Assembly (NCBI RefSeq): GCF_054482525.1
Contig: NZ_CM137006.1
Reading direction: 5' to 3' (one strand)
Length of the DNA: 64,000 bases
Shown: positions 8,714-22,710 of the stretch, one piece after another
How the letters are laid out: each line of letters opens with the position of its first letter
How positions within the stretch are numbered: the stretch's first letter is position 1
The notes under the pieces: model-generated
What the model was told of the DNA's origin: nothing
Seen by the model: only the letters and a program-made list of their open reading frames with translations
Databases searched by the model: none
Translations under genes and position numbers: made by a program

Positions 8714-8870
8714 ACATGTATTCCCGGTGAAAAAAGACAAAACCCCGCGCACCGGAAAAGTGGCGGGGGACTCACGGAGATAATATCTGCCTAAAATTAT
8801 TTGGAATGCAGGTATATGCAGCTAATTTGTATCGGCTCATTAGTACAGAACTAAACCTCATCTGACAGTC

Positions 8871-8907
8871 CGCTCTGTGCCAGGAGCAGACATTGCCAAC
8901 GTTATGA
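8871..8907. repeat. 37-bp imperfect direct repeat, copy 1 (cgctctgtgccaggagcagacattgccaacgttatga)
   Basis: About 30/37 identical to copy 2 at 10234-10270. Together they bracket a roughly 1.3 kb segment. Confidence 0.6.
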
Positions 8908-9282
8908 CCCTCGATTACATCAAAGAGCCCTATAGCCGAAACCTGCACCATAGCCATCTCTGTAGAATTCGTCCTAGGGGCTTTTAACAGACCTAGTTGT
9001 ATGGAGCGGAAGGAAATATTAAAGCTCAAGGCGTCAGTCCAGTGCTGTCCTGTTTGCTTACCACACGAAAGAGTGCTGCTTGTACCTGCTAACTAATGGT
9101 ATGCGGAGTGAGGGGGGCGGGTAGAACCAAAAGCACTTACTACGTGTGGCGCTCTCCTGGAAGAGGAGACGTCGAAGTGATAACGCTAACAACAGTCTTA
9201 CTGGTGATGCAAATAATGCTAGCTGGTCTGGTTGCCATCAAGCAACTGACTGGACGCCCGTAAGGGATGGAGGAACTTGATT

Positions 9283-9318
9283 AAAGGCAGGGGGGTTACC
9301 TCCCCTGCCTTTTTTCGT
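9283..9318 (+). terminator. Rho-independent terminator (GGCAGGGGGG-TTACC-TCCCCTGCC + T6)
   Basis: Perfect GC-rich hairpin followed by TTTTTT on the + strand, directly after a short hydrophobic ORF that ends with TAA at 9269-9271. Confidence 0.65.
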
Positions 9319-9378
9319 TTCTGCGCAAGTTAGCTCTGTTATTATAATCCTTACTCACACTGTAAGGACATAGTTCAA

Positions 9379-10062
9379 ATGACTGAATGGCTTAATGCAC
9401 ATTTTGGTGCAGACGCAGCTACCTATCTTAGCTTATTAGTCGGCGTACTGGCACTGTTTGGTATTGGGGGCGGTGTTACATATAGAATCAGACAGCAAAA
9501 CAACATAAAACAGAAGGCAAAGAAAACCGAGGGTGATGTGAACCAGGCCGGGCGGGATATTAATCAGACCACCAACGTTTACCACACATCCAATGAATCT
9601 ACTGAGGACCCTGTAAAAAAAAAGCAAGATGAACATGATCTGAAGATAATCGACCAGATCCTTGAATTGCTGCCTTATGAGGATACTACTCAATGGGTTG
9701 AGCAGAGCTACCTGAGCGGTATACGGCAAGATGTTTGCTTAAACATTGAAAAAGCTGAAAAATTTAGCGGTGAAAAGTATCGGTTATTCAATACTGAAGT
9801 GAATGGTGCGAAAGACGCTTTTTTGGACGCTATGACCGCATACGTAGATAGTACGCTACCATTTATGAGTGTTGATTACCCGAACAGAAAGCCAGTGATG
9901 CTAAGCCTTCCCCATGACTGGAAGAGTAAGAGTGTTGAATCGGAGGCAAACTTCCGCTTTCATCAGCAAAATGTGCGTGAAACATCGGGGGGGATGATTG
10001 CGCGCTATGAGGATTTTGTCAGGACATTTAAGGCTCATGGATTCATAAGCGATAAACTGTAA
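9379..10062 (+). CDS. Membrane-anchored hypothetical protein (227 aa; one N-terminal TM helix, cytoplasmic domain unknown)
   Basis: ORF with plausible SD (taaggacatagttcaaATG). TM segment LSLLVGVLALFGIGGGVTY followed by a Lys-rich linker. No recognisable domain. Confidence 0.5.
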   Translation: MTEWLNAHFGADAATYLSLLVGVLALFGIGGGVTYRIRQQNNIKQKAKKTEGDVNQAGRDINQTTNVYHTSNESTEDPVKKKQDEHDLKIIDQILELLPYEDTTQWVEQSYLSGIRQDVCLNIEKAEKFSGEKYRLFNTEVNGAKDAFLDAMTAYVDSTLPFMSVDYPNRKPVMLSLPHDWKSKSVESEANFRFHQQNVRETSGGMIARYEDFVRTFKAHGFISDKL

Positions 10063-10233
10063 AGGCGCAGTGGGTCAGCGAACACCGCAACGACAGAACC
10101 GCGTAAGCGGTAAAATCAGCTTGTTAACTGGCGAGTTTATAGCCGTCCCTCCGGGGCGGCTTTTTTATGACTATAATCGACAGAATCACCTGAACGTCCA
10201 GGTGGGTTTCCCTGACAGGACGTCAAGGAATGT

Positions 10234-10270
10234 TCGCTTTGTGCCAGGAGCGGACGTTGCCAGCATTGAG
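10234..10270. repeat. 37-bp imperfect direct repeat, copy 2 (cgctttgtgccaggagcggacgttgccagcattgagt)
   Basis: Pairs with 8871-8907. Confidence 0.6.
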
Positions 10271-10416
10271 TTTTCAGTTTTCAAAGGTATATCTTTAGAT
10301 TTAGTTCACTTAGAATGAGCGTGTTAAAGTTTTCGGTTATGTGAGTATATTGAACATAACAAATAAACAATAATTTTTGTATTCCATTTAAGATATAAAA
10401 AAGAGGGATTTGAGTT

Positions 10417-11202
10417 ATGTACGATTATAGTTTTTTACTTACTCCATCTACAGGATTTGTTAAAGGATTATGTGGAGTTTGGTCGAATGATTTCTCTATA
10501 AATGATGATTCTGACTCTGATTTAGGGCAAACAGATATTCATTTACTTTCATCTCCTCATTTGAATATCATATCCGACCCAAATGAATTGGCTTCCAAGT
10601 TAAAAGGTTTGTTGATGCTCATGAACGGCGCACTTAGCGTTCTTTATGGTTTTGAAAGATATCAATCTTTTGGTCCTCTTTCTATTTCTGGAAGTGAAGG
10701 CATTAATTACTCGGAAATATGCGGCTTTAAATCAATGGATGTAACTCAGGTAAATCCCTTTAATTTCCATGACATACAGCAACCACACCCTCGCGCTGAT
10801 AATTTTTCACGATTAATTAATTTATCATCTAAACATGAATCCTTACGTGTTGTTTTAGGTATGTGTGCCTTAGGTTATGATTGGGTTAATCTTTATCGTT
10901 TGTGGGAAACAATTAGAGAATATGTATATGATAAATATGTGAAAGGTATACTAAATTTTCCCGACGCTTATAAAGGCAAGAAATATCAGAGAGATAAAGT
11001 AATTAGCATGGCTTTTAATATTGATGAAAAGGAAATCAGCAGATTCACGGGCACTGCTAATAGCTTTGAACTGTTAGGGTATCTTGCGAGACATGGAAAG
11101 GGAAGTTCCGGAGGGATATTAAAAAATCCGATGTCAAGAGTTGACGCAAGCAATTTCGTACACAAAGCAACTTACAAATATTGTAAGTTATTTTTGATGT
11201 AA
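10417..11202 (+). CDS. Hypothetical protein (261 aa) in a sharply AT-rich segment; orphan accessory gene
   Basis: Long ORF in a low-GC block (10.3-11.3 kb) with RBS-like aaaaagagggatttgagttATG. No recognisable motifs. Confidence 0.45.
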   Translation: MYDYSFLLTPSTGFVKGLCGVWSNDFSINDDSDSDLGQTDIHLLSSPHLNIISDPNELASKLKGLLMLMNGALSVLYGFERYQSFGPLSISGSEGINYSEICGFKSMDVTQVNPFNFHDIQQPHPRADNFSRLINLSSKHESLRVVLGMCALGYDWVNLYRLWETIREYVYDKYVKGILNFPDAYKGKKYQRDKVISMAFNIDEKEISRFTGTANSFELLGYLARHGKGSSGGILKNPMSRVDASNFVHKATYKYCKLFLM

Positions 11203-11363
11203 GTAAAAAGTTGAAGCTATAATACTCAAAGTATCGAAAACTACGTTCGTCGTGCACTCGAAAACAATATGCTTATTGTGTCTGCACTAATTACTCAAGG
11301 TCCGAGAAAAATGGCGAAGCTCATCTTTTTCAGGCTTCGCCAACTTGAGTTATTGGTTAAAAT

Positions 11364-12116
11364 TCATTTAGGAATAATAGAATGCAATTCGTGACTCACC
11401 TGGATTTCATAGTGTTTCAATAGTTCTCCGATGTTAATTCCTACTACCTTACGAACTGCGCCGAGGGAGAAGTTAAGCTCCTCAATGCCCGGCCGATCTG
11501 GCGTTGAATTCATATAGTGTCGGCACGCACGGACAATTGACTCGACGATCAACGATAGCGGAGACTCAGGTGCAATCTCGGAGCGAATCGCCGTAAGAGA
11601 GAGTCGGAGCTCCTTCAAAGAATCCGAGACTCGTGCTGGATCCTCTTGAGCATATGGCAGATAAAGAGAACTCTTGTCTTCCAATAAATGGATCACCCGC
11701 AGAGCAATTTTCTCGTCTGGGCGATGCGATAGAAATTGAAACATTAGCCTCTTTCCTCCCTCCAAGCACTCCTTCATTAGTGATTCGTGGTCACGTTTCC
11801 ATTTTCGCAAATACTCGGCGGGGTAGCCCATACCGCCATTCTTATCAACTAAATCAGCACAAGCTCCGCACAACCATATAGCATTTTTTATGCTCTTCCG
11901 CTCTGTTTCTGACTGAGACATGTCATAGCGCGGTCCGCCAGGGCTCGCCGCGCAGATATGCGCCGCCTCACCCGTCTTGATAGAAAGATTTTCCGCCAAT
12001 TGATCCGGGCCGATTGTTACCCTATGACAAGAGGGATTGCTACAAATATATGTAGCGCGCTCTGCTACCTTACCTACAACGCTTGGAGGAAAGTTGTGCC
12101 TATTTGTCTTGGTCAT
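11364..12116 (-). CDS. HNH-endonuclease-domain protein (250 aa) with uncharacterised C-terminal domain
   Basis: N-terminal CSNPSCHR ... AAHICAASPGGPRYD ... NAIWLCGACADLVD resembles an HNH/zinc-finger nuclease core (CxxC..H..N..CxxC). Confidence 0.5.
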   Translation of the reverse strand: MTKTNRHNFPPSVVGKVAERATYICSNPSCHRVTIGPDQLAENLSIKTGEAAHICAASPGGPRYDMSQSETERKSIKNAIWLCGACADLVDKNGGMGYPAEYLRKWKRDHESLMKECLEGGKRLMFQFLSHRPDEKIALRVIHLLEDKSSLYLPYAQEDPARVSDSLKELRLSLTAIRSEIAPESPLSLIVESIVRACRHYMNSTPDRPGIEELNFSLGAVRKVVGINIGELLKHYEIQVSHELHSIIPK

Positions 12117-12559
12117 AAAAGTTATGCTTCTTTGTTTTTTTCATCTATGTGGGGAGAATAAAATCATACTTTTTATATCTGATCCTAGGTCTGACCAGCA
12201 ACCTATTGATCAAAAAACCAAGATATTAGCTAAAAAAAATCAGCATACTTGAGACCAAGCTCAATGTCCGCTCCTCGCTCAAAGCAGACCATTCGCTCAG
12301 TTAACGCATCAGTGTCGTGCTAAAAGTAGACGTGGTTAACAACAATGTGAGTTAATCAACGGAGAGCAGGTCAACTCTAACCTGTATCAAAAAAACAAAT
12401 GTGTCACAAAGATGCCGCATGCCTTAATTTGAGTATAATTGAGACGGAAGTAGACGGTTTATGGCTAAATATTGTTGATATATAGCTATTTGAAGAGTTG
12501 TAGCGCAAGTGTATAGCCCAAACTAATAACGCTACGCCCCTTACCTTTGACGCCTCTTA

Positions 12560-12868: not shown

Positions 12869-13089
12869 GGATTGTAGTCATAGAGAAGTCTCCTGTAACG
12901 GTTTTCAGGAAGCTAATCCCGACGCCTGATTTTGCAGGCGCGGAAGGAGAAGATACTGCGGCCATTAATCCGCCACAAGGCATTTACGTGCATAAATCGC
13001 GCAGTCAAATCCGACTCCCACTGTAGTTCTTGAACCTGATACCACATTTAGCTAATTTAGCTAACTTATCTATTATACCAGTGGTTGCC

Positions 13090-13335
13090 ATGAATATGAA
13101 TGAAGACGAGATTTATCGCCATATCCGGCAGGCACTTTCCAGTGCGCCTCGTAACCAGTACACCGTCGAGCTGCACCTGCAAATGATTAAATATGCCGAC
13201 AAACTGGAACACATTACGGCAAAAGCCTTTTGCGAAGGCACTGGTCTGAACCAGAGCCTCGGTACCGAATTCAGCAAAATGCGTAACTTAACCCATCGGT
13301 TAAAGGCCGCCGGTCTGAATACCGATCTGCTGTAA
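13090..13335 (+). CDS. Small hypothetical protein (about 81 aa) immediately upstream of hsdM
   Basis: MNMNEDEIYRHIRQALSSAPRNQYTVELHLQMIKYADKLEHITAKAFCEGTGLNQSLGTEFSKMRNLTHRLKAAGLNTDLL. Co-oriented with hsdM and 40 bp upstream of it. The ORF track extends to 13030. Confidence 0.4.
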   Translation: MNMNEDEIYRHIRQALSSAPRNQYTVELHLQMIKYADKLEHITAKAFCEGTGLNQSLGTEFSKMRNLTHRLKAAGLNTDLL

Positions 13336-13374: not shown

Positions 13375-15813
13375 ATGGCTATCAAAAAAACCGAACTCTA
13401 TTCTTCCCTGTGGGCAAGCTGCGACGAACTGCGTGGCGGGATGGACGCCAGCCAGTACAAAGACTATGTACTGACCCTGCTGTTTATGAAGTACGTTTCC
13501 GATAAGTATAAAGGCGATCCTTACGGGATGATCGTGATACCCAAAGGAGCCAGCTTTGACGATATGGTTGCGCTGAAAAATGACAAAGAGATCGGCGACA
13601 AAATCAACAAAATCATCCACAAGCTGGCGGAAGAGAACGGCCTGAAGGGCGTCATCGACGAAGCCGACTTTAACGACGAAGATAAGCTCGGCAAAGGCAA
13701 GGAAATGATTGACCGCCTGAGCAAGCTTGTCGGTATCTTTGAAGGGTTAAATCTCTCCAGCAACCGGGCCGAAGGCGACGATCTGCTGGGCGATGCCTAT
13801 GAATATCTGATGCGTCACTTCGCAACCGAATCCGGTAAGAGTAAAGGGCAGTTTTACACTCCAGCGGAGGTGTCACGTATTCTGGCGAAGGTGATTGGTA
13901 TTACTCCCGATACTCCGCAAGATGCAACGGTTTATGACCCAACCTGTGGCTCTGGTTCGCTGCTGTTGAAAGTGAATGATGAAGCCCGGCGCGGACTGTC
14001 GATTTTCGGCCAGGAGATGGATAACGCTACCAGTGCGCTGGCGCGGATGAACATGATTCTGCATAACAATGCCACCGCGAAAATCTGGCAGGGCAATACG
14101 CTGAGCGATCCGCAGTGGAAAGAGGCGAACGGCAAACTGAAAGCCTTCGATTTTGCCGTGGCGAACCCGCCTTTTTCCAATAAAAACTGGACCAACGGGC
14201 TGACGCCGAAAAAAGATCCGTTTGAACGCTTCGGCTGGGGTATTCCGCCGGAAAAAAACGGCGATTATGCTTTTTTGTTGCATATCATTAAAAGCCTGAA
14301 AAGTACCGGCAAAGGCGCGGTGATCCTGCCCCACGGCGTACTGTTTCGCGGTAACGCCGAAGCGAATATCCGTGAAAATCTAATCAAGCAGGGCTATATC
14401 AAAGGCGTTATTGGTTTGCCAGCCAACCTGTTTTACGGCACCGGCATCCCGGCGTGCATCATTGTGATTGATAAAGAGCACGCCCACAGCCGCAAAGGCA
14501 TTTTTATGATCGACGCCAGCCGGGGCTTTATCAAAGATGGCAACAAGAACCGCCTGCGTAGCCGAGATATTCACCGCATTGTGGACGTGTTCAACCATCA
14601 GCGAACGGTACCTGGCTACAGCCGGATGGTGCCCTCCAGCGAGATCGCCGGAAATGATTACAACCTGAATATTCCTCGCTATATCGAGAGCGGCGAGCCG
14701 GAAGATTTACACGATCTGACCGCGCACTTACAGGGCGGTATTCCGGCACGCGATGTGGATGCTTTGCAAGATTACTGGCGGGTATTCCCTGCCCTGCGCA
14801 ACGTGCTGTTTGCTGACGACCGTCCCGGTTACTGTCGGGCGCAGGTGAACGCGCAACAGGTGAAACCGACCATTCTGGCGCATCAGGAGTTTAAGGATTT
14901 TGCCACCCGCAGCCTGCTACCGTTTAAAGCGTGGGTGAAAGAGGCAAGTCTGGAAGAGATTCGCAAAGGTGATAAACCCAAAGCGCTAATCCACGATATC
15001 AGCGAAATGCTATTGGCGCAGTACGCCAACAGTGAGTTGCTGAACAAATACAGCGTGTACCAGATCCTGATGGATTACTGGACTGATGTCATGCAAGACG
15101 ATGTGTATGCGATTATGCAGGATGGCTGGCAAGCCGCCGCGCAAATCCGCGAGCTTCAGCCGGTGAAAGGCAAAGATGGCAAAAACATCTGGAAAGAAAC
15201 GCACGATTTCGAGTTTACCAAACGGCGCTACAAGGCCGATGTGCTGCCCCGTTCGCTGGTGGAAATTCGCTGTTTCCCGGAACTGCTGGATGCGCTGAAC
15301 CGCGCGCAGGAGCGCAGTGAAGAAGCCAGTCGTCAGCTAGTGGAATTCATCGAGGAGCAGGCAGGTGAAGAGGATCTGCTGGCCGAGGCGAAGAACGATA
15401 AAGATAAGGTGACGCAAAAGCTGGTGAATGCCCGTCTAGCACAGTTAAAGAAAACCACTGCCGGCCCAGATGAGCTGGCAGTGCTGAACCGCTGCCTGGC
15501 GCTAATTAAGGCCGAAGCCAGTGCGAAAAAAGCGCTGAAAGCCGCACAAGAAGCGCTGGATCGGGCGGTGTTTAAACATTATCCCACGCTGGATGAAGCA
15601 GCGATTAAAACGCTGGTAGTGCAGGATAAGTGGCTGGCAACGTTGCAGGCAGGGATCAAGGCGGAGATTGAGCGTATTACCCAGCAACTGGCGTCGCGCG
15701 TAAAGGAGCTGGAAGAGCGTTATGCTGAACCGTTGCTAGCGCTTGAAGCCTCCGTTGAGGCGTTGAGCGAGAAAGTGGCCGAGCATTTGCGGGCGATGGG
15801 GCTGGAGTGGTGA
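13375..15813 (+). CDS. hsdM: Type I restriction-modification system methyltransferase subunit M (812 aa, with long C-terminal coiled-coil extension)
   Basis: HsdM N-terminal domain (YKDYVLTLLFMKYVSD), SAM motif DPTCGSGSLL, catalytic NPPF (FAVANPPFS). About 300 extra C-terminal residues rich in A/E/K/L. Confidence 0.9.
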   Translation: MAIKKTELYSSLWASCDELRGGMDASQYKDYVLTLLFMKYVSDKYKGDPYGMIVIPKGASFDDMVALKNDKEIGDKINKIIHKLAEENGLKGVIDEADFNDEDKLGKGKEMIDRLSKLVGIFEGLNLSSNRAEGDDLLGDAYEYLMRHFATESGKSKGQFYTPAEVSRILAKVIGITPDTPQDATVYDPTCGSGSLLLKVNDEARRGLSIFGQEMDNATSALARMNMILHNNATAKIWQGNTLSDPQWKEANGKLKAFDFAVANPPFSNKNWTNGLTPKKDPFERFGWGIPPEKNGDYAFLLHIIKSLKSTGKGAVILPHGVLFRGNAEANIRENLIKQGYIKGVIGLPANLFYGTGIPACIIVIDKEHAHSRKGIFMIDASRGFIKDGNKNRLRSRDIHRIVDVFNHQRTVPGYSRMVPSSEIAGNDYNLNIPRYIESGEPEDLHDLTAHLQGGIPARDVDALQDYWRVFPALRNVLFADDRPGYCRAQVNAQQVKPTILAHQEFKDFATRSLLPFKAWVKEASLEEIRKGDKPKALIHDISEMLLAQYANSELLNKYSVYQILMDYWTDVMQDDVYAIMQDGWQAAAQIRELQPVKGKDGKNIWKETHDFEFTKRRYKADVLPRSLVEIRCFPELLDALNRAQERSEEASRQLVEFIEEQAGEEDLLAEAKNDKDKVTQKLVNARLAQLKKTTAGPDELAVLNRCLALIKAEASAKKALKAAQEALDRAVFKHYPTLDEAAIKTLVVQDKWLATLQAGIKAEIERITQQLASRVKELEERYAEPLLALEASVEALSEKVAEHLRAMGLEW

Positions 15814-17147
15814 TGGTGGATTTAATGGTGAATGAGCAACGGTCGAGTACGGCGGGGAAAGATGTGCCTGCGGGGTATAAACTGACTGAGGTGGGCGTGA
15901 TTCCTGAGGATTGGGATTGCGTACCATTTGGTAATCTGTTTAAAACAAACACAAAGAAAAAAAAAGTCAGCGATTATGAGCTAGTTTCATTTATTGGGAT
16001 GCAAGATGTTAGTGAAGATGCACAATTAAAAAATAATACTCAACTTCCTTTTAAAGAAGTTAAAAGTGGTTTTACTTACTTTGAAAAAGGGGATGTTTTA
16101 TTAGCTAAAATAACCCCTTGTTTTGAAAATGGAAAAGGATGTCATACCGCTGATTTACCTACTAATGTAGGTTTTGGGAGTACGGAATTTCATGTATTAA
16201 GGGAAAATGAAGACTCCGATTCTCGCTTCATCTATTTTTGGACAACTGATAAAAAATTCAGAGCATCACTGGAATCTGAAATGGTGGGAAGTGCGGGACA
16301 CCGTCGTGTGCCGCTAGTTGCTATAGAAAAATATTTGATTCCATGTCCCCCAAATTTGCAAGAGCAAAGTGCTATTGCTGATTCATTATCTGATATTAAT
16401 AATTTTATTCTAGCTCTAGAAAAGCTTATCGTTAAAAAACAAGCCATTAAAACCGCTACTATGCAGCGACTACTGACTGGTAAAACCCGTTTGCCACAGT
16501 TTGCGTTGCGCAAAGATGGCTCTGCTAAGGGATATAAAAAGAGCGAGTTGGGGGAGATTCCTGAAGATTGGAATTGTATTAATCTTGGTGAGCTAGGTAA
16601 TTGCATTATTGGGTTAACTTACAAACCTGAAGATACATCTGATTATGGTACATTGGTATTACGCTCATCCAACATTCAAAATAATCACTTAGCTTATGAT
16701 GATAACGTCTTCGTCAGCATAGAACCACCTGAGCGCACAATTGTGAAAGAAGGTGATATCTTGGTATGTGTAAGAAATGGCAGTCGCCAACTTATTGGCA
16801 AATGCGCATTAATTGACAAAAATGCGCAGGGCTCAGCATTCGGTGCATTTATGTCAGTATTCCGAACTGATATATATGGATTTACATTTCACCAATTCCA
16901 GTCTGATATTATTCAAAAGCAAATCGCTGAAGTTATGGGTGCCACTATCAATCAGATAACTAACAAAGATATGTTGGGCTTTAAAATCCCATTACCTGAA
17001 AATACAGAAGAACAAGCCGCCATCGCCGCCATCCTCTCCGATATGGACAAGGAAATCCAGATCCTGCAACAGCGTCTGGACAAAACCCGCCAGCTTAAGC
17101 AAGGGATGATGCAGGAACTGTTAACCGGGAAAATCCGCTTAATATAG
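15807..17147 (+). CDS. hsdS: Type I R-M specificity subunit S (two target-recognition domains)
   Basis: Conserved central and C-terminal repeats ...ATMQRLLTGKTRLPQF... and ...MMQELLTGKIRLI typical of HsdS. Start overlaps the hsdM stop. Confidence 0.85.
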   Translation: MVMVDLMVNEQRSSTAGKDVPAGYKLTEVGVIPEDWDCVPFGNLFKTNTKKKKVSDYELVSFIGMQDVSEDAQLKNNTQLPFKEVKSGFTYFEKGDVLLAKITPCFENGKGCHTADLPTNVGFGSTEFHVLRENEDSDSRFIYFWTTDKKFRASLESEMVGSAGHRRVPLVAIEKYLIPCPPNLQEQSAIADSLSDINNFILALEKLIVKKQAIKTATMQRLLTGKTRLPQFALRKDGSAKGYKKSELGEIPEDWNCINLGELGNCIIGLTYKPEDTSDYGTLVLRSSNIQNNHLAYDDNVFVSIEPPERTIVKEGDILVCVRNGSRQLIGKCALIDKNAQGSAFGAFMSVFRTDIYGFTFHQFQSDIIQKQIAEVMGATINQITNKDMLGFKIPLPENTEEQAAIAAILSDMDKEIQILQQRLDKTRQLKQGMMQELLTGKIRLI

Positions 17148-17159
17148 AAGGGAAAGCAC

Positions 17160-17816
17160 ATGGCTTATGATTACAGCGCCAGCCTCAACCCGCAAAAAGC
17201 TCTGATCTGGCGTATCGTCCATCGGGACAATATCCCGTGGATTCTGGATAACGGGCTGCACTGCGGCAACAGTCTGGTGCAGGCGGAAAACTGGATCAAT
17301 ATCGGCAACCCGGAGCTGATCGGCAAGCGTGCCGGGCATCCGGTACCTGTCGGAACGGGCGGGACACTGCATGACTATGTGCCGTTTTATTTTACCCCCT
17401 TCTCGCCAATGCTGATGAACATCCACAGCGGGCGCGGCGGCATTAAGCAACGCCCCAATGAGGAGATCGTTATTCTGGTCAGCAACTTGCGAAACGTGGC
17501 AGCACACGACGTACCCTTCGTGTTTACCGACAGCCATGCTTACTATAACTGGACCAACTACTACACCAGTCTGGATAGTCTGGACCAGATCGACTGGCCC
17601 ATTTTGCAGGCACGGGACTTTCGCCGCGATCCAGACGATCCGGCTAAATTTGAACGCTATCAGGCAGAGGCGCTAATCTGGCAACACTGCCCGATCTCTC
17701 TGCTGGATGGGATAATTTGTTACAGCGAAGAGGTCAGGTTACAATTAGAACAATGGCTGTTTCAGCGTAATCTAACAATGTCCGTTCACACACGGGCTGG
17801 ATGGTACTTCTCATGA
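17160..17816 (+). CDS. darT: DarT DNA ADP-ribosyltransferase toxin (DUF4433)
   Basis: 218 aa, [38 protein letters not shown].... Matches the DUF4433/DarT family as found in EPEC E. coli (from memory). Followed with an ATGA overlap by a macrodomain gene. Confidence 0.75.
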
Positions 17817-18880
17817 TCACATATACACAAGGCAATTTACTGGACGCACCGGTGGAAGCTCTGGTGAATACGGTTAATACCGTCGGTGTCATGGGGAAAG
17901 GCATCGCGTTGATGTTTAAAGAGCGCTTCCCCGAAAATATGAAAGTCTATGCCCTCGCCTGCAAACAAAAGCAGGTGATCACCGGCAAAATGTTCATTAC
18001 CGAAACCGGGGAACTGATGGGACCGCGCTGGATTGTTAATTTTCCGACCAAACAGCACTGGCGCGCTGATTCCCGCATGGAGTGGATTGAAGATGGCTTG
18101 CAGGACTTACGCCGCTTTTTGATTGAAGAGAACGTGCAGTCCATCGCCATTCCACCACTGGGCGCAGGCAACGGTGGTTTGAACTGGCCGGACGTTCGGG
18201 CGCAGATTGAATCTGCCCTTGGCGACCTTCAGGACGTTGATATCCTGATTTACCAACCGACTGAAAAATACCAGAACGTTGCCAAAAGCACTGGCGTAAA
18301 AAAGCTCACTCCCGCCAGAGCCGCCATCGCTGAACTGGTGCGTCGCTACTGGGTATTGGGGATGGAGTGCAGCCTACTGGAAATCCAGAAACTGGCCTGG
18401 CTGTTACAACGCGCCATTGAGCAGCATCAACAGGACGATATCCTCAAACTGCGGTTTGAAGCTCACTATTATGGCCCCTATGCGCCCAATCTGAACCATC
18501 TGCTTAATGCGCTGGACGGCACCTATCTTAAAGCCGAGAAACGCATCCCGGACAGCCAACCGCTGGATGTGATCTGGTTTAACGATCAGAAAAAAGAACA
18601 CGTTAATGCGTATCTGAACAACGAAGCCAGAGAGTGGCTACCTGCGCTGGAGCAGGTCAGCCAGTTAATTGACGGCTTTGAATCGCCGTTTGGTCTGGAG
18701 TTGCTGGCAACCGTAGACTGGTTGCTGAGCCGTGGCGAATGTCAACCAACGCTGGATTCCGTTAAGGAAGGGCTGCACCAGTGGCCTGCGGGCGAACGCT
18801 GGGCCAGCCGTAAGTTGAGGCTGTTTGATAATAATAATCTGCAATTTGCCATTAACCGCGTAATGGAGTTCCATTGCTGA
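17813..18880 (+). CDS. darG: DarG antitoxin (N-terminal macrodomain ADP-ribosylglycohydrolase + C-terminal DarT-binding domain)
   Basis: [40 protein letters not shown]... is a classic macrodomain N-terminus. The ATG at 17813 overlaps the darT TGA at 17814-17816. The ORF track starts at 17801. Confidence 0.75.
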
Positions 18881-18898
18881 GGGTTTAAGGAGCGCCTT

Positions 18899-21800
18899 TT
18901 GAGTACCGTGGGCCAGCGCGAACGCGCCACACAGCAGCGTCTGATTCAGTTTTTTGTTGAAGATTTAGGTTACCGCCATCTGAGTCACCGCACCGGGTAC
19001 ACCGGGAACAGCAACATCGACACTAATATACTGAGCGCGTGGCTAAAACGGCGCGGCGTTAATGATACGTTGATCACCCGGGCGTTGCGGCAACTGGATT
19101 CCGCCGCCGCTCTGGGCGAAGGCAAAAAACTCTATTACGCCAATAAAGAGGTCTATCGCCTGCTGCGTTACGGCGTGAAAGACAAAGAAGGCGCAGGCGA
19201 GCAGAACCAAACCGTGTGGCTGATTGACTGGGCCAACCCACAAGCCAATGATTTCGCCATCGCCGATGAGGTGACGGTCAAAGGCGAGTACTGCAAGCGC
19301 CCGGATCTGGTGCTGTACGTTAACGGCATTGCGCTGGGCGTGATTGAACTTAAGCGTTCGTCAGTGCACGTCAGCGAAGGCATCCGGCAGAATCTCGATA
19401 ATCAAAAGAAAACCTTTATCCGCGATTTCTTCACCACTATGCAGTTAGTGATGGCGGGCAACGATACGCAGGGCCTGCGCTACGGCACCATCGAAACCCC
19501 GGAAAAATACTATCTGGAGTGGAAAGAAGATAATCCAGGCGACTATACACATAAACTCGACTTTCATTTAAGTCGTCTGTGTAGCAAATCCAGGCTGTTG
19601 GATATCGTCCATAATTACATTGCCTTTGATGTCGGGGTGAAAAAACTCTGCCGCCATAATCAGTTCTTCGGCGTCGAGGCGGCTAAACAACATATTGCCC
19701 GTCGTGAAGGCGGTATTATCTGGCACACACAGGGATCGGGTAAAAGCCTGACGATGGTCTGGCTGGCGAAGTGGATCCGTGAAAATGTGCCAAACTCCCG
19801 CGTGTTGATTGTGACTGACCGCACCGAACTGGATGAACAGATCGAAAGCGTGTTTATGGGCGTGAATGAAGATATTTATCGCACCTCCAGCGGCAACGAT
19901 CTTATCGCAACGCTCAATCATCCTAACCCGTGGCTCATTTGCTCGCTGGTGCATAAATTTGGTCGTCGCAGCGAAGCTGAAGACAATGCGGCTACCGACG
20001 CCTTTATCACCGAATTACAGCAGTCCCTGACGAAAACATTCCGCGCCAAAGGCGATCTGTTTGTTTTTGTGGACGAGTGCCACCGCACACAATCCGGCAA
20101 GCTGCATAACGCCATGACTGCCATTCTGCCGGACGCCCTGTTTATCGGTTTTACCGGCACACCGCTGATGAAGAAAGATAAGAAGAAGTCGGTTGAGGTG
20201 TTCGGCCCTTATATCCATACCTATAAATTTGATGAAGCGGTGGCCGACGGTGTGGTGCTGGATCTGCGCTACGAGGCACGCGATATTGACCAGTATCTGA
20301 CATCAGAGAAAAAGGTCGATGACTGGTTTGAAGCCAAGACTCGCGGTTTGTCGAATTTAGCCAGGACCCAGCTTAAGCAAAAGTGGGGATCAATGCAGAA
20401 GCTGCTCTCCAGCAAGTCGCGGCTGGAGCAGATCGTTAACGACATTTTGCTGGATATGGATACCCGTCCACGCCTGATGGACGGGCGCGGCAACGCCATG
20501 CTGGTATGCAGCAGTATCTATCAAGCCTGCAAGGTTTACGAGATGTTCAGCCAGACCGAGCTGGCAGGAAAAGTAGCGATTGTGACCAGCTATCGCCCCG
20601 ATGCCGCCAGCATCAAAGGCGAAGAAACGGGCGAAGGGTTAACGGAGAAACTCTCTAAACACGCCACCTATCGTAAAATGTTGGCTGACTATTTTGAACA
20701 AAGTGAAGAGAAGGCCGCCGCACGCATTACCGAGTTCGAGCGGGAAATGAAACAGCGTTTTATTGAAGAGCCGGGGCAAATGCGCCTGCTTATCGTGGTG
20801 GATAAGCTGCTGACTGGCTTTGACGCGCCGTCCGCCACCTATCTCTACATTGATAAAACCATGACCGACCATACGCTGTTTCAGGCGATTTGTCGGGTGA
20901 ACCGGCTGGACGGTGAGGATAAAGAGTATGGCTATATTATCGATTATAAAGATCTGTTCCGTTCGCTGGATAAAGCGATTACCGATTACACCACGGGCGC
21001 GTTTGATGATTACGATCGGGACGATGTGGCCGGGTTGCTGAAAGACAGGCTGGAGCAGGCGCAACTGGATCTCGACAGCGCGCTGGAGATGGTTCGCAGC
21101 TTATGTGAACCCGTCAAAACCCCGCGCAGCCTGCTGGACTATCAGCACTATTTTTGCGGTGAATCAGGAGAGAATCAGACTTCGTTAAACGAAAAAGAGG
21201 CGCTGCGCCTGACATTTTACCAGTGCGTCGCCCGTCTGCTACGCGCTTATGCCAGCATCGCCAATGAAATGCCGGAAGCAGGCTACACTGCCGAAGAGGT
21301 AGAGAGCATTCGCGCCGAAGTCGCTGAATTCGAAAAACTGCGCTATGAGATTAAGCTGACCAGCGGCGATCTTCTGGATATGAAGCGCTTTGAACCCGCT
21401 ATGCGTCATTTACTGGATATGTATGTTCGCGCCGATGGTAGCGAAGTGCTGATGGATTTTGAAGAGTTAAGTCTGATTGAACTGATTGTCGAGAAAGGCT
21501 TGGCGGCGACCGTCGCCCTGCCGGATGATATCCGTAATAATCAGGATGCGATGGCGGAAACCATCGAAAACAACGTGCGCAAAACCATCGTGGATGAAAA
21601 CCCGGTTAACCCAAAATACTATGGACGCATGTCGCAGCTGCTGGATGAACTGATTACCCTTCGCCGACAAAATGCGCTCAATTATCAGCAGTATCTGGAA
21701 CGTATCCGCGATTTGTGTAAACAGGTCATCCGCCCGGAGCAAACCGCCGGAGCGTGCTACCCTGCCACCATGGATACACAAGCAAAGCGCGCCTTCTATG

Positions 21801-21994
21801 ATAACTTCGGCCACGACGAGGTACTGGCGACCCGCATAGATACGACGATTCGCTATACCAAAAGGGCAGAGTGGATTGGCGATCGTTTTAAAGAACGGGA
21901 AATTGCCAACGCATTACGTGAAGAGACCGCCAGCTATAATATTGATATTGATGAGGTGATAGCGCTTGCCCGTCAGCAGAAGGAATATCACTGA
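18899..21994 (+). CDS. hsdR: Type I restriction enzyme R subunit (SF2 helicase/translocase + nuclease)
   Basis: 1031 aa; Walker A TQGSGKSLTM, DEAH box VFVDECHRTQ, helicase motifs III-VI. TTG start at 18899 with AGGAG 7 nt upstream. Confidence 0.9.
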   Translation: MSTVGQRERATQQRLIQFFVEDLGYRHLSHRTGYTGNSNIDTNILSAWLKRRGVNDTLITRALRQLDSAAALGEGKKLYYANKEVYRLLRYGVKDKEGAGEQNQTVWLIDWANPQANDFAIADEVTVKGEYCKRPDLVLYVNGIALGVIELKRSSVHVSEGIRQNLDNQKKTFIRDFFTTMQLVMAGNDTQGLRYGTIETPEKYYLEWKEDNPGDYTHKLDFHLSRLCSKSRLLDIVHNYIAFDVGVKKLCRHNQFFGVEAAKQHIARREGGIIWHTQGSGKSLTMVWLAKWIRENVPNSRVLIVTDRTELDEQIESVFMGVNEDIYRTSSGNDLIATLNHPNPWLICSLVHKFGRRSEAEDNAATDAFITELQQSLTKTFRAKGDLFVFVDECHRTQSGKLHNAMTAILPDALFIGFTGTPLMKKDKKKSVEVFGPYIHTYKFDEAVADGVVLDLRYEARDIDQYLTSEKKVDDWFEAKTRGLSNLARTQLKQKWGSMQKLLSSKSRLEQIVNDILLDMDTRPRLMDGRGNAMLVCSSIYQACKVYEMFSQTELAGKVAIVTSYRPDAASIKGEETGEGLTEKLSKHATYRKMLADYFEQSEEKAAARITEFEREMKQRFIEEPGQMRLLIVVDKLLTGFDAPSATYLYIDKTMTDHTLFQAICRVNRLDGEDKEYGYIIDYKDLFRSLDKAITDYTTGAFDDYDRDDVAGLLKDRLEQAQLDLDSALEMVRSLCEPVKTPRSLLDYQHYFCGESGENQTSLNEKEALRLTFYQCVARLLRAYASIANEMPEAGYTAEEVESIRAEVAEFEKLRYEIKLTSGDLLDMKRFEPAMRHLLDMYVRADGSEVLMDFEELSLIELIVEKGLAATVALPDDIRNNQDAMAETIENNVRKTIVDENPVNPKYYGRMSQLLDELITLRRQNALNYQQYLERIRDLCKQVIRPEQTAGACYPATMDTQAKRAFYDNFGHDEVLATRIDTTIRYTKRAEWIGDRFKEREIANALREETASYNIDIDEVIALARQQKEYH

Positions 21995-22710
21995 TGCCAA
22001 TCATGCAAATAGGCTCGTTACACTTGCTGGTCAACCGTAAGGCGATTAAGAATCTGCATATCAGCGTGCTGCCGCCTGATGGCAAAGTACGCGTTTCAGC
22101 GCCGGAACATATGACGGAGACGGCGATTCGTATGGCGGTTGCTTCACGCTTTCGCTGGATCAGAAAACAGCAGCAGGATTTCGCCAGACAGCCTCGTCAA
22201 TCAGAGAGGGAAATGGTCAGCGGAGAGTGCCACTATCTTTGGGGCCGAAGATATCGCCTACTTGTGATTGAGCGTCACGGGCGTCACGAAGTAAAAGTTG
22301 CAGGAAATAATAAGCTCCAGCTTTATGTTCAACCAGGAACCCGTGATGAAAATAAGGCATTGGCGTTAAGTGAATTTTATCGACATGAACTAAAACAGCA
22401 GGTGGCTAAGCTTCTACCTGAATGGCAGGACCGAATCGGTGTTCCCCTAACATTCTGGGGCATCAAAAAGATGAAAACCTTTTGGGGCACCTGTAACACT
22501 ACAACAAAACGAATCTGGCTCAATCTGGAGCTAATTAAGAAGCCGCCGGAGTGTCTGGAGTATATTCTGGTGCATGAACTGGTTCATCTTCTGGAACGTC
22601 ACCATAATGCTCGCTTCCGGTTGCATATGGATCGGTTTATTCCTGACTGGCGTGAGCGTCGGGATTTGTTAAATAATATGCCGTTAGCGTTTGAGGCATG
22701 GGAGTATTGA
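21994..22710 (+). CDS. M48-family/YgjP-like (DUF45) zinc metallopeptidase commonly associated with type I R-M operons
   Basis: HExxH motif (LVHELVHLLERHH). Start overlaps the hsdR stop (TGATG). Confidence 0.7.
   Translation: MPIMQIGSLHLLVNRKAIKNLHISVLPPDGKVRVSAPEHMTETAIRMAVASRFRWIRKQQQDFARQPRQSEREMVSGECHYLWGRRYRLLVIERHGRHEVKVAGNNKLQLYVQPGTRDENKALALSEFYRHELKQQVAKLLPEWQDRIGVPLTFWGIKKMKTFWGTCNTTTKRIWLNLELIKKPPECLEYILVHELVHLLERHHNARFRLHMDRFIPDWRERRDLLNNMPLAFEAWEY

What the first reader, a model, noticed from the sequence alone, without database searches (positions are those of the whole stretch)
9379..12116. Cluster of three uncharacterised genes immediately upstream of the R-M/DarTG locus
- The genes are a membrane-anchored 227-aa protein, a 261-aa protein in a sharply AT-rich block, and a convergent 250-aa protein with an HNH-like nuclease N-terminus.
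- Anomalous GC, proximity to hsd/darTG and a nuclease domain are the usual hallmarks of defense-island cargo. None matches a family I can name.
Basis: inference. Interest (0 to 1): 0.5.

Follow-up and report, generated by a model that had tools for sequence, protein, structure and literature searches.

The report
Three stacked single-gene phage-defence cassettes
The three "uncharacterised" genes are not one system but separate cargo genes in an E. coli genomic island: the middle one is an already published anti-phage gene (DS-29), and the other two are untested defence candidates, one of them an unusual nuclease fusion.

Summary
The three ORFs are real and sit at the stated coordinates, but they are not one cluster. 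Comparison with other E. coli genomes shows two cassettes, each inserted at a 24-nt GC-rich hairpin: A alone (8892-10255) and B+C (10256-12289). They lie in the cargo zone of a CP4-44-like island at tRNA-Ser.

- **B** is 100% identical to WP_061089765.1. This is DS-29 of DefensePredictor (Science 2026), a single gene shown to block Bas60, T4, Candy and RB69. Its fold is HEPN-like. Across distant relatives the only invariant residues are R225-H226.
- **C** fuses a Cap5/SPARHA-type HNH domain to a C-terminal DUF6650-like helical domain. [quoted passage not shown] The general-base His, the Asn, the zinc-binding cysteines and the Asp95 equivalent are conserved. The Mg-binding "last His" is Ala/Ser in the whole family. 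C relatives are solo genes with no TIR partner. C is a published prediction but untested.
- **A** is a one-TM protein from a tiny family. Its Vibrio relative is a single integron cassette. It is also predicted but untested.

The defence-cargo interpretation is right. The three-gene unit and "no nameable family" are not.

The parts
8868..8891 (.). Hairpin repeat copy 1 (GTCCGCTC TGTGCCAG GAGCAGAC). It marks the junction between the island backbone (GTPase side) and the cargo.
   Evidence: Pattern search found 3 copies in the window against 0.14 expected. The same junction in strains lacking A is followed directly by DS-38 or by metabolic cargo.
8892..10255 (+). Cassette 1: gene A with its terminator and one hairpin copy. 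It is a precise hairpin-to-hairpin insertion.
   Evidence: L109 has backbone | one hairpin | DS-38. L003 has backbone | hairpin | A | hairpin | DS-38. blastn breakpoints fall at window 8891 and L003 10232.
9379..10062 (+). Gene A, 227 aa. Layout: conserved N-terminal motif, one TM helix (aa ~13-35), a low-complexity GDV-QAGRDIN linker, then a conserved ~140-aa C-terminal domain.
   Evidence: ORF. TM segment. Only 16 homologue clusters and no Pfam, PADLOC or NCBIfam hit. Alignment A3. The Vibrio homologue is a single integron cassette. DefensePredictor log-odds 5.34, untested.
10141..10168 (+). Intrinsic terminator of A: 9-bp GC-rich stem followed by a T-run.
   Evidence: Terminator scan.
10232..10255 (.). 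Hairpin repeat copy 2 (GTTCGCTT TGTGCCAG GAGCGGAC), the boundary between the A cassette and the B-C cassette.
10256..12289 (.). Cassette 2: B and C, about 2.03 kb, found as a unit in at least 4 genomic contexts.
   Evidence: The empty site in strain 144 versus the filled site in F41. Klebsiella loci in three contexts match window 10236/10240-12289/12290 at 94%. Present in 14/5426 E. coli genomes, always at this site.
10417..11202 (+). Gene B, 261 aa, = DS-29 (working name HEP3). A validated single-gene anti-phage system with a HEPN-like helical core and an invariant R225-H226.
11314..11341 (-). Stem-loop (GGCGAAGC...GCTTCGCC) followed by a T-run on the minus strand. Likely terminator of C in the B/C convergent gap.
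   Evidence: Read directly from the sequence. The consensus scan did not report it, because the loop is 12 nt.
11757..12116 (-). C, N-terminal HNH (His-Me finger) domain, aa 1-120. Key residues: H53 general base, N78, Zn ligands C25/C30/C83/C86, D91-K92-N93. A87 occupies the position of the Mg-binding His.
   Evidence: PADLOC and PHROG hits. PDB profile hits 9om4, 8ysq, 7rwk, 7rwm and 8fm1 with alignments. Family alignment A1. Residue roles in PsCap5 from PMC12141522.
11364..11756 (-). C, C-terminal DUF6650-like all-helical domain (aa ~121-250) plus the stop codon. Invariant residues: E158, R171, R199, M202-N203, R222-K223.
   Evidence: Precomputed PF20355 hits on all 120 listed homologues and in neighbourhood tables. 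PGAP names an allele 'DUF6650 family protein'. The local PF20355.3 model gives sub-threshold hits at aa 126-206. AF2 pLDDT is 85-95. Only generic helical-bundle fold matches. Weak HMM match to a type VI ThsG.
12266..12289 (.). Hairpin repeat copy 3, a variant-loop copy (GTCCGCTC CTCGCTCA AAGCAGAC). It is the right end of the B-C cassette.
   Evidence: In F41 it is followed, after 18 nt, by a perfect copy and then DS-38.

Best explanation
The interval holds three independently acting accessory genes. They are carried on two small cassettes that were inserted one after the other at a 24-nt hairpin site (GTCCGCTC-N8-GAGCGGAC). That site marks the backbone/cargo junction of a CP4-44-like island at tRNA-Ser.

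**Cassette 1 carries A.** A is a membrane-anchored protein of unknown biochemistry and can function as a stand-alone unit. I infer that it is a single-gene defence candidate. Its mechanism is unknown.

**Cassette 2 carries B and C, convergently transcribed.**
- B is DS-29, for which single-gene anti-phage defence has been shown. I infer that it is a HEPN-like ribonuclease that uses the invariant R225-H226 dyad and acts by abortive infection or translation shut-off.
- C is inferred to be a self-contained effector. Its C-terminal DUF6650-like helical domain would oligomerise and/or bind a phosphorylated small-molecule or phage-derived cue through its invariant Arg/Lys residues. That would bring the Cap5/SPARHA-type HNH domains together into composite active sites that degrade DNA non-specifically.
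- C would use a non-canonical metal site: H53 as general base and D91 as ligand, with no His91 equivalent.

**Shown versus inferred.**
- Shown: gene structures, cassette boundaries, B's identity with DS-29, C's domain composition and residue conservation, and the absence of conserved partners.
- Inferred: the catalytic roles, the activation mechanism, a defence role for A and C, and site-specific recombination at the hairpin.
For: **Separability**
- A occurs without B-C in about 260 of 274 matching genomes.
- Nested configurations exist: backbone|hp|DS-38; backbone|hp|A|hp|DS-38; backbone|hp|A|hp|B-C|hp|DS-38.
- A has its own terminator.
- The B-C cassette has identical ends in 4 contexts.
- B occurs alone in a Pantoea plasmid at 92% nt identity.
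- More distant B relatives have no DUF6650 neighbour.
- 20 loci with full-length C relatives have no B homologue and no recurrent neighbour family.
- C relatives appear as solo prophage morons or solo genes.

**B**
- Its sequence is identical to DS-29, which was cloned as one CDS, found defensive and replicated.
- It gives HEPN-fold hits.
- R225-H226 are the only invariant residues across 60 members at 20-30% identity.

**C**
- HNH homology to Cap5 and SPARHA, both oligomerisation-activated nucleases.
- Invariant H53, N78, four Cys and D91-K92-N93.
- PF20355 hits.
- DUF6650 is the 2'cADPR-responsive, hexamer-modelled ThsG domain with positive pockets. It is also part of the single-gene system DS-27.
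- Invariant Arg/Lys in C's helical domain.
- DefensePredictor log-odds 5.48.

**A**
- Its Vibrio homologue is a one-gene integron cassette sitting among TA and defence-type cassettes.
- DefensePredictor log-odds 5.34.
Against: - No experiment exists for A or C; neither is in the tested table S6.
- C lacks the His that binds catalytic Mg in PsCap5 (His91 becomes A87, and Ala/Ser family-wide). Nuclease activity is therefore not assured.
- Direct homology between C's C-terminal domain and a type VI ThsG is only weakly supported. The HMM score is 9.6 bits, reached by 0/1000 shuffles, but hhalign gives a probability of 0.3%. The local PF20355.3 model is below its gathering score.
- B and C do travel together at 94% identity across four contexts. 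A functional link between them is therefore not excluded.
- One C relative sits inside a UvrD-helicase/PDDEXK operon, so some family members may work in multi-gene systems.
Confidence: 0.62

Rival explanations
1. B and C form one two-gene defence system, for example a HEPN-like sensor/toxin paired with an HNH-DUF6650 partner. In this view the cassette is the functional unit.
For: B and C are kept together with identical spacing (a 160-bp convergent gap) at ~94% nt identity in four different contexts across E. coli and Klebsiella. Both score as defensive in DefensePredictor.
Against: - The genes are convergent, so they are not an operon.
- B alone gave 5-6 logs of protection.
- B occurs without C at 92% nt identity in Pantoea, and at 45-62% aa identity elsewhere.
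- C relatives in 20+ loci from many phyla have no B-like gene nearby.
Confidence: 0.12
2. C is a type VI Thoeris-like effector (an HNH-armed ThsG). It is activated in trans by 2'cADPR, or another TIR product, made by a TIR protein encoded elsewhere in the genome.
For: C's C-terminal half carries PF20355/DUF6650. DUF6650 effectors respond specifically to 2'cADPR. C has invariant basic residues, consistent with a nucleotide pocket. In one Klebsiella context a TIR_2 gene lies two genes upstream of the cassette (L081).
Against: - No TIR gene is adjacent to C here, and none is annotated anywhere in the island.
- No type VI ThsB-like sequence occurs in the window or in 90 loci.
- Two other Klebsiella contexts of the same cassette lack the TIR gene.
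- The Thoeris survey lists only 'DUF6650' and 'DUF6650 and TM' effectors and never mentions HNH.
- DS-27 shows that a DUF6650 fusion can defend as a single gene.
Confidence: 0.15
3. C is not a signal-activated suicide nuclease. It is either a restriction-like HNH enzyme (type IV/II-like) whose helical C-terminal domain recognises DNA, or a catalytically impaired HNH protein that only binds DNA.
For: DefensePredictor's HHblits match for C was to a type II REase-class HNH. The Mg-ligand His is missing family-wide. HNH domains are commonly recruited by DNA-reader domains (PMC12738770). The basic conserved residues could equally bind DNA.
Against: - The best HNH matches are the oligomerisation-activated effector class: PDC-M68A, SAVED-HNH/Cap5 and SPARHA.
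- The strict invariance of H53, N78 and D91-K92-N93 across phyla argues for a working active site.
- There is no cognate methyltransferase beside C relatives.
- The C-terminal domain has no fold match to a known DNA-reader domain.
Confidence: 0.15
4. A is not a defence gene. It is a membrane protein with another accessory role, or a remnant related to a phage structural protein.
For: - A has no hit in PADLOC, Pfam, NCBIfam or PHROGs.
- The only outside similarity is a weak profile hit (25 bits, E 8.6e-5) to the tail-tube initiator/baseplate hub gp11 of Vibrio phage XM1.
- Its DefensePredictor score of 5.34 is moderate, and it was not tested.
Against: - tblastn of A's C-terminal domain against 50,697 phage records finds nothing at E<=1.
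- Every context is accessory: the island cargo zone, a Vibrio superintegron cassette among TA cassettes, and a Salmonella plasmid-like contig.
- The sequence is well conserved at 37-65% identity with 40 invariant positions.
Confidence: 0.3

Closest known systems
DS-29 ('HEP3') of DefensePredictor (DeWeirdt et al., Science 2026, PMC13092281)
   Same: Gene B is the same protein (WP_061089765.1, 261 aa, identical sequence). It comes from the same kind of locus, with A and C as its neighbours on the source contig NZ_RRWI01000012.1.
   Different: Nothing differs in sequence. The paper gives no mechanism beyond a weak HEPN-like call. This analysis adds three things: the invariant R225-H226 dyad, a superfamily of about 1180 clusters, and the cassette context.
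CBASS Cap5 (HNH-SAVED) and SPARHA HNH-APAZ effectors
   Same: C's N-terminal domain is the same HNH subtype. It shares the GxAAHI general-base strand, GGPR, N..LLC and LxD, plus the Zn site. Those effectors are switched on when a sensor domain drives HNH tetramerisation.
   Different: C has no SAVED or APAZ domain and no CD-NTase or pAgo partner; its C-terminal domain is DUF6650-like. The 'HH' of LLCxxHHxLID is 'C[AS]' in C's family, so the zinc-ligand His is replaced by Cys and the Mg-ligand His is lost.
Type VI Thoeris effector ThsG and DS-27 (SMEK-DUF6650)
   Same: All share the Pfam DUF6650 (PF20355) helical domain as the C-terminal module, with a variable N-terminal module (TM helices, SMEK, and here HNH). 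DS-27 shows that a DUF6650 fusion can act as a single-gene defence.
   Different: C has no adjacent TIR (ThsB). An HNH N-terminus is not described for ThsG. Direct sequence similarity to a type VI ThsG is marginal.
PADLOC candidate PDC-M68 (protein A)
   Same: This is the best PADLOC hit for C (6.6e-24).
   Different: Only profile positions 5-113 of 253 align, which is the HNH domain. The C-terminal halves differ. No literature on PDC-M68 was found.
Integron gene cassettes / attC recombination
   Same: Promoter-poor one- or two-gene units are stacked head-to-tail and separated by a hairpin-forming repeat that is duplicated on insertion. A circularised B-C unit (as in F41) would reconstitute exactly one hairpin. 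A's Vibrio homologue is a genuine integron cassette.
   Different: The E. coli repeat is only 24 nt, with no R/L boxes of attC type. No IntI gene is present; only a truncated 'site-specific integrase' lies beyond DS-38 in some strains. Recombination at the hairpin has not been demonstrated.

Membership tests
DS-29 (DefensePredictor) | Protein sequence identity with WP_061089765.1, the tested single-CDS construct. | tested here: met
   The 100% identical locus in NZ_CP075062.1 annotates B as WP_061089765.1. The sequence printed in Table S8 equals the window ORF.
DS-29 (DefensePredictor) | Confers anti-phage defence on its own. | not testable with these tools
   Taken from the paper: defensive TRUE, replicated TRUE, with EOP reductions for Bas60, T4, Candy and RB69.
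HEPN superfamily (for B) | Four-helix up-and-down HEPN fold. | tested here: inconclusive
HEPN superfamily (for B) | Catalytic Rx4-6H motif. | tested here: not met
   The invariant residues are the adjacent R225-H226 in ARHG. No conserved His lies 4-6 residues after a conserved Arg. There is no Pfam HEPN hit at E<=1. B is therefore filed as 'HEPN-like' only.
HNH / His-Me finger nuclease, Cap5-SPARHA subtype (for C) | General-base His at the end of the first beta strand (PsCap5 His56). | tested here: met
   H53 is invariant in 20 diverse members and aligns to the AHI His of 9om4, 8ysq and 7rwk.
HNH / His-Me finger nuclease, Cap5-SPARHA subtype (for C) | Structural Asn and a zinc-binding Cys/His cluster. 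| tested here: met
   N78 is invariant, and so are C25, C30, C83 and C86. The cluster is CCCC here and not CCCH.
HNH / His-Me finger nuclease, Cap5-SPARHA subtype (for C) | Mg/Mn-binding His on the alpha helix (PsCap5 His91, the 'last H' of HNH). | tested here: not met
   The aligned position is A87 in C and Ala or Ser in all 20 aligned members. Cap5 and SPARHA have His here.
HNH / His-Me finger nuclease, Cap5-SPARHA subtype (for C) | Second metal ligand Asp, one helical turn later (PsCap5 Asp95). | tested here: met
   D91 is invariant, followed by invariant K92 and N93.
CBASS Cap5 | C-terminal SAVED sensor domain and an adjacent CD-NTase gene. | tested here: not met
   PADLOC and PDB matches stop at about aa 120. 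There is no SAVED or CD-NTase in the neighbourhood.
Pfam DUF6650 (PF20355) | Significant match to the family model. | tested here: met
   Precomputed PF20355.5 hits are recorded for all 120 listed homologues and appear unmarked (E<=1e-5) in neighbourhood tables. PGAP names allele WP_000169362.1 'DUF6650 family protein'. Caveat: the older local PF20355.3 model finds nothing for C itself and scores two C relatives at only 13-16 bits, against a cut-off of 27.
Type VI Thoeris (ThsB TIR + ThsG DUF6650) | Adjacent TIR (ThsB) gene in the same operon. | tested here: not met
   There is no TIR next to C in the window or in the island. No type VI ThsB-like hit was found in the window or 90 loci. Neighbourhoods of C relatives lack TIR.
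Type VI Thoeris (ThsB TIR + ThsG DUF6650) | Effector homologous to validated ThsG. | tested here: inconclusive
   An HMM of C's C-terminal domain (126 sequences) scored against the ThsG of an E. coli type VI operon (L106) gives 9.6 bits, reached by 0/1000 shuffles. hhalign gives a probability of 0.1-0.3%.
Type VI Thoeris (ThsB TIR + ThsG DUF6650) | Activation by 2'cADPR; homo-hexameric tube. | not testable with these tools
   No multimer prediction or ligand assay was available.
PADLOC PDC-M68 | Full-length match to PDC-M68A plus its partner protein(s). | tested here: not met
   Only positions 5-113 of the 253-position profile align. B and A have no PADLOC hit.
Integron cassette array (for the hairpin-bounded units) | attC sites of 57-141 nt with R/L boxes, and an IntI integrase with attI. 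| tested here: not met
   The E. coli repeat is a 24-nt simple hairpin. No intI gene is in the island. By contrast, A's Vibrio homologue is flanked by ~125-nt VCR-like repeats.

The most novel reading that the evidence does not exclude
Two linked ideas remain open.

1. HNH-DUF6650 proteins such as C may be a widespread class of stand-alone, ligand- or oligomerisation-gated DNases. They would use a reduced metal site (His-Asn-Asp, with no 'last His'). That would make DUF6650 a portable sensor/assembly module comparable to SAVED or APAZ, able to work without a dedicated TIR partner.

2. The 24-nt hairpin may be the attachment site of an unrecognised integron-like system that exchanges cassettes. 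Such a system would stack single-gene defence modules (A, DS-29+C, DS-38) in the cargo zone of CP4-44-type islands of E. coli and relatives.
Probability: 0.2. Interest if true: 0.7.

Novelty: new variant of a known kind. Interest (0 to 1): 0.4.

Why it matters
- **B.** B needs no discovery claim, because it is DS-29. Its mechanism is unpublished. The invariant Arg-His dyad and the ~1180-cluster superfamily give a direct mutational handle.
- **C.** C joins two recent lines of work. One is Cap5/SPARHA-type HNH effectors that fire on oligomerisation. The other is the DUF6650 domain, just shown to be a 2'cADPR-responsive Thoeris effector whose killing mechanism is unknown when no TM segment is present. 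A DUF6650 domain fused to a nuclease and living as a solo gene suggests DUF6650 is a general assembly/sensor module. It also offers an easily assayed read-out (DNA cleavage) for studying what DUF6650 senses.
- **The hairpin.** The precise hairpin-to-hairpin stacking of cassettes suggests how defence genes are shuffled within this very common island family.

Tried and rejected
- **Pfam and NCBIfam scans of A, B and C** gave no usable hit. Pfam missed C because the local PF20355 model is an older version.
- **A three-gene operon or system** was rejected on comparative grounds.
- **B as a conserved partner of C** was rejected. tblastn and blastp of B against 70 loci and 160 neighbour ORFs found nothing, and no neighbour family recurs.
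- **C as Cap5, Shedu or PDC-M68** was rejected, because only the HNH domain matches.
- **C as a type VI Thoeris effector in an operon** was rejected, because there is no TIR.
- **Direct comparison of C with DS-27 and with ThsG by hhalign** gave no signal. TIR-adjacent genes in Listeria and Priestia were not recognisable as DUF6650 by Pfam. The E. coli plasmid copy of the Thoeris operon was frameshifted.
- **Fold searches of C's model** gave only generic four-helix bundles in the PDB and nothing significant in BFVD. AFDB50 was unavailable. The HNH half of the model was low-confidence, so active-site geometry could not be read from it.
- **B against PDB sequences** gave nothing. Ten distant B-family members have no Pfam domain.
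- **A against the phage collection by tblastn** gave nothing. The gp11 hit is kept only as a weak lead.
- **The hairpin as a REP-like dispersed repeat** was rejected, because there are only 1-4 copies per genome.
- **Literature on PDC-M68**: none found.


Full report
**1.

The window contains the three ORFs exactly as reported:
- A, 9379..10062 (+), 227 aa
- B, 10417..11202 (+), 261 aa
- C, 11364..12116 (-), 250 aa

GC drops to 0.33-0.34 over B, against about 0.50-0.55 in the neighbouring hsd genes. A has one hydrophobic segment of TM grade at aa ~13-35; B and C have none.

The surroundings, in order, are:
- an Ag43-type autotransporter
- a YeeP-like GTPase
- A, B and C
- a small HTH gene
- hsdM-hsdS-darT-darG-hsdR
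- an M48 peptidase gene

The window is 100% identical over this stretch to E. coli EC_J_9. There it lies in a ~60-kb island at tRNA-Ser, between ghrA and ycdU/pga. The island has a CP4-44-like backbone: CbtA/CbeA, RadC-like, antirestriction, Ag43 and GTPase.

**2. The three genes are not one unit**

Only 14 of 5426 complete E. coli genomes hold A+B+C. About 260 more hold only the A region. Annotated comparisons give a nested series:

| Strain | Arrangement |
|---|---|
| Seattle 1946 | GTPase remnant, hairpin, DS-38 |
| 144 | GTPase, hairpin, A, hairpin, DS-38 |
| F41 | GTPase, hairpin, A, hairpin, B-C, hairpin' plus hairpin, DS-38 |
| This window | As F41, but the DS-38 side is replaced by the hsd/darTG module |

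The gene after the last hairpin in F41 and strain 144 is 99% identical to WP_001313577.1. That protein is DefensePredictor's validated DS-38.

Breakpoints fall exactly at a 24-nt GC-rich inverted repeat, GTCCGCTC-TGTGCCAG-GAGCGGAC. Copies lie at 8868, 10232 and, with a variant loop, 12266. That is 3 copies against 0.14 expected by chance.

The B-C segment recurs at 94% identity in Klebsiella in three unrelated contexts:
- a plasmid leading region next to an IS110
- an smpB-adjacent islet
- an SRAP/umuDC locus

In each case the boundaries correspond to window 10236/10240 and 12289/12290.

In F41 the insert, relative to the empty site of strain 144, starts with loop plus right stem and ends with a left stem. 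A circular form would therefore carry exactly one hairpin. This is the logic of site-specific cassette insertion, but recombination itself is inferred, not shown.

The hairpin is low-copy, at 1-4 per genome in 1674 genomes, and always intergenic. It is therefore island-associated and not REP-like. The perfect copy folds well as single-stranded DNA (-8.8 kcal/mol, z = -4.05); the degenerate copies fold less well.

A has its own strong intrinsic terminator at 10141-10161. A stem-loop with a T-run on the minus strand at 11314-11341 probably terminates C.

**3. Gene B is already known: DS-29**

B is annotated as WP_061089765.1. That accession, with the identical sequence, is the tested transcription unit 'HEP3' of DefensePredictor (Science 2026, PMC13092281). 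It was cloned as a single CDS, was defensive and replicated, and was named DS-29.

Reported reductions in plating, in logs:

| Phage | Reduction |
|---|---|
| Bas60 | 6.3 |
| T4 | 5 |
| Candy | 3.7 |
| RB69 | 1.3 |

The source contig has A and C as neighbours, so it is the same locus type. The paper offers no mechanism beyond an HHpred call to the 'HEPN-like integron domain' at probability 0.59.

My own analysis adds the following:
- The word-indexed search found only 32 Enterobacterales clusters.
- A full profile search found 1180 representative clusters, nearly all 230-290 aa. None of ten sampled members has a Pfam domain.
- Across 60 members at 20-30% identity the only invariant residues are R225 and H226. 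N215, G227, F210 and Y160 are nearly invariant.
- This is not the canonical Rx4-6H motif, so I call B 'HEPN-like' and do not file it as a HEPN.

The most likely mechanism is an RNase using the Arg-His dyad and acting through abortive infection. This is inferred.

**4. Gene C is a Cap5/SPARHA-type HNH fused to a DUF6650-like domain**

*HNH half.*
- The N-terminal ~120 residues match PADLOC PDC-M68A, CBASS SAVED-HNH effectors and SduA. They also match several PHROGs of unknown function.
- Among solved structures they match the SPARHA HNH effector 9om4 (7.7e-14) and Cap5 proteins.
- In every case only the HNH domain aligns.

*Active site.* In PsCap5, His56 is the general base, His91 and Asp95 bind the catalytic Mg, and Glu53 bridges dimers (PMC12141522). 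SPARHA uses the same architecture and is activated by HNH tetramerisation (PMC12738770).

| PsCap5 residue or feature | Role | In C's family |
|---|---|---|
| His56 | General base | H53, invariant |
| Structural Asn | Fold | N78, invariant |
| Zn cluster | Zn binding | C25, C30, C83, C86, all invariant |
| His91 | Mg ligand | A87; Ala or Ser in all 20 aligned members |
| Asp95 | Mg ligand | D91, invariant, followed by invariant K92-N93 |
| Neighbouring Zn-ligand His | Zn binding | Cys |

So one of the two protein metal ligands is missing family-wide, while everything else is under strict conservation. I read this as a modified but probably functional site. Other His-Me nucleases manage with a single protein ligand, a point that rests on my general knowledge and was not tested here. 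Activity is unproven.

*C-terminal half.*
- It is confidently modelled at pLDDT 85-95 and is all-helical.
- It resembles only generic helical bundles.
- All 120 listed homologues carry precomputed PF20355 (DUF6650) hits. PGAP names an allele 'DUF6650 family protein'.
- The older local model finds nothing for C itself. On two C relatives it places the domain at aa ~126-206 but scores below threshold.

*What is known about DUF6650.*
- It is the effector domain (ThsG) of type VI Thoeris. That effector responds to 2'cADPR and is modelled as a hexameric tube with positively charged pockets. Its killing mechanism is unknown when no TM helix is present (bioRxiv 10.64898/2025.12.03.692087).
- It is also the C-terminal domain of the single-gene system DS-27.

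C's helical domain has invariant R171, R199 and R222-K223. These fit a phosphate-binding pocket.

I located an E. coli type VI operon, which sits in a P2-like prophage hotspot, and compared its ThsG with C. A 126-sequence HMM of C's domain scores 9.6 bits, reached by 0 of 1000 shuffles. hhalign is non-significant. This is weak support only.

**5. C is a solo gene**

- Twenty full-length relatives from Proteobacteria, Bacteroidota, Cyanobacteria, Firmicutes and Acidobacteria have no B homologue nearby and no recurrent neighbour family.
- An E. coli relative at 54% identity is a moron between the Q antiterminator and the holin genes of lambdoid prophages.
- One relative is isolated.
- One lies between a UvrD-like helicase and a PDDEXK gene.
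- No type VI ThsB-like TIR occurs in the window, in the island or beside any relative.

C is therefore not a member of type VI Thoeris as defined, although it may work like its effector. DefensePredictor scores C at log-odds 5.48, but it was not tested.

**6. Gene A**

- A belongs to a family of only 16 clusters, from E. coli/Shigella, Salmonella, Vibrio and Pseudoalteromonas. It has no hit in any library.
- It has 40 invariant positions, including an N-terminal W-x-N...G-x-D-x-A-x-Y motif before the TM helix. A GDV-QAGRDIN linker follows, repeated in one homologue, and then a conserved C-terminal domain.
- In Vibrio alginolyticus it is a single integron cassette flanked by VCR-like repeats, in an array rich in toxin-antitoxin cassettes. 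It is therefore a self-sufficient unit.
- Its profile weakly matches the hub/tube-initiator protein gp11 of Vibrio phage XM1, at 25 bits and E 8.6e-5. A tblastn search against phages finds nothing.
- DefensePredictor log-odds is 5.34, and it was not tested.

The function remains open. A membrane-anchored single-gene defence role is the best guess.

**7. Verdict**

- The middle gene is already a published, validated system.
- The 'cluster' is really two cassettes with three independent genes.
- The HNH domain has a non-canonical metal site.
- The parts worth follow-up are C, as an undescribed HNH-DUF6650 architecture, and the hairpin-mediated stacking of cassettes.

Noticed in passing
window 8868-8891, 10232-10255, 12266-12289; L002 12308-12331; L109 4501-4524; L110 4501-4524: A 24-nt GC-rich hairpin (GTCCGCTC-N8-GAGCGGAC) marks the backbone/cargo junction of CP4-44-like islands and is duplicated around each inserted cassette. 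Strains form a nested series with 0, 1 or 2 cassettes. Cassette starts share RTTGCCARC immediately after the hairpin. The hairpin occurs 1-4 times per genome in 1674/5426 E. coli genomes. This suggests an unrecognised site-specific cassette-exchange mechanism.
   Followed up: partly
L002 12374-13474 (-); L003 10298-11398 (-); L109 4567-5667 (-): In strains lacking the hsd/darTG module, the gene directly after the last hairpin is DS-38 (WP_001313577.1 or a 99% identical allele), another validated DefensePredictor HEPN system. It is followed by a truncated 'site-specific integrase' and a dynamin-family gene pair.
   Followed up: partly
window 12880-12954 (-): Sub-gathering Rfam matches to isrK (42.3 bits against 50) and to the a1/b1 target of the phage C4 antisense RNA (40.9 against 46.7). 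They lie in the spacer between C's cassette and the HTH/hsd module.
   Followed up: no
window 9283-9312 (+): A very strong terminator-like hairpin (13-bp stem with 8 GC pairs, then a T-run) lies about 70 nt upstream of A's start codon. It lies inside the A cassette, and no annotated gene ends there. It could be a small RNA or a transcriptional insulator.
   Followed up: no
window 13375-21994: darT-darG sits between hsdS and hsdR within a single type I R-M gene array. The array is preceded by an HTH_73 small gene (13030-13335) and followed by an M48 peptidase gene (21994-22710) that overlaps the hsdR stop.
   Followed up: no
window 9379-10062 (A aa 66-180) vs PDB 7kh1 gp11 aa 68-186: A weak but formally significant profile hit (E 8.6e-5, 25 bits) links A's C-terminal domain to the insertion region of the tail-tube initiator/baseplate hub protein of Vibrio phage XM1. 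tblastn against phage genomes did not reproduce it.
   Followed up: partly
L084 4562-5290 and L074-L077 5141-5896: DUF2971 genes sit immediately upstream of a distant B relative in Klebsiella aerogenes and two cassettes upstream of the A homologue in the Vibrio superintegron. A DUF2971-like protein is DefensePredictor's DS-45. These small genes seem to circulate together as defence cassettes.
   Followed up: no
L092-L096 2643-6898; L014 5615-8910: Some C relatives are embedded, with 4-12-nt gaps, between a UvrD-like helicase and a PDDEXK_1 nuclease gene. This hints at a multi-gene system that uses an HNH-DUF6650 component.
   Followed up: no
L106 1616-2964 (E. coli APEC E19025) and 41 other E. 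coli genomes: The type VI Thoeris operon (TM-containing ThsG plus ThsB TIR) lies in a P2-like prophage hotspot next to the portal and terminase genes. The current local Pfam DUF6650 model does not detect this ThsG.
   Followed up: partly
L081 4117-4899; L079 4785-5756: In one Klebsiella context a TIR_2 gene lies two genes upstream of the B-C cassette. In the plasmid context an IS110-family transposase ends 65 bp before the cassette's left end.
   Followed up: no
window 10070-10318 (+): This 82-aa ORF spans A's terminator and the hairpin repeat. It is not annotated in RefSeq and is almost certainly not a gene.
   Followed up: yes
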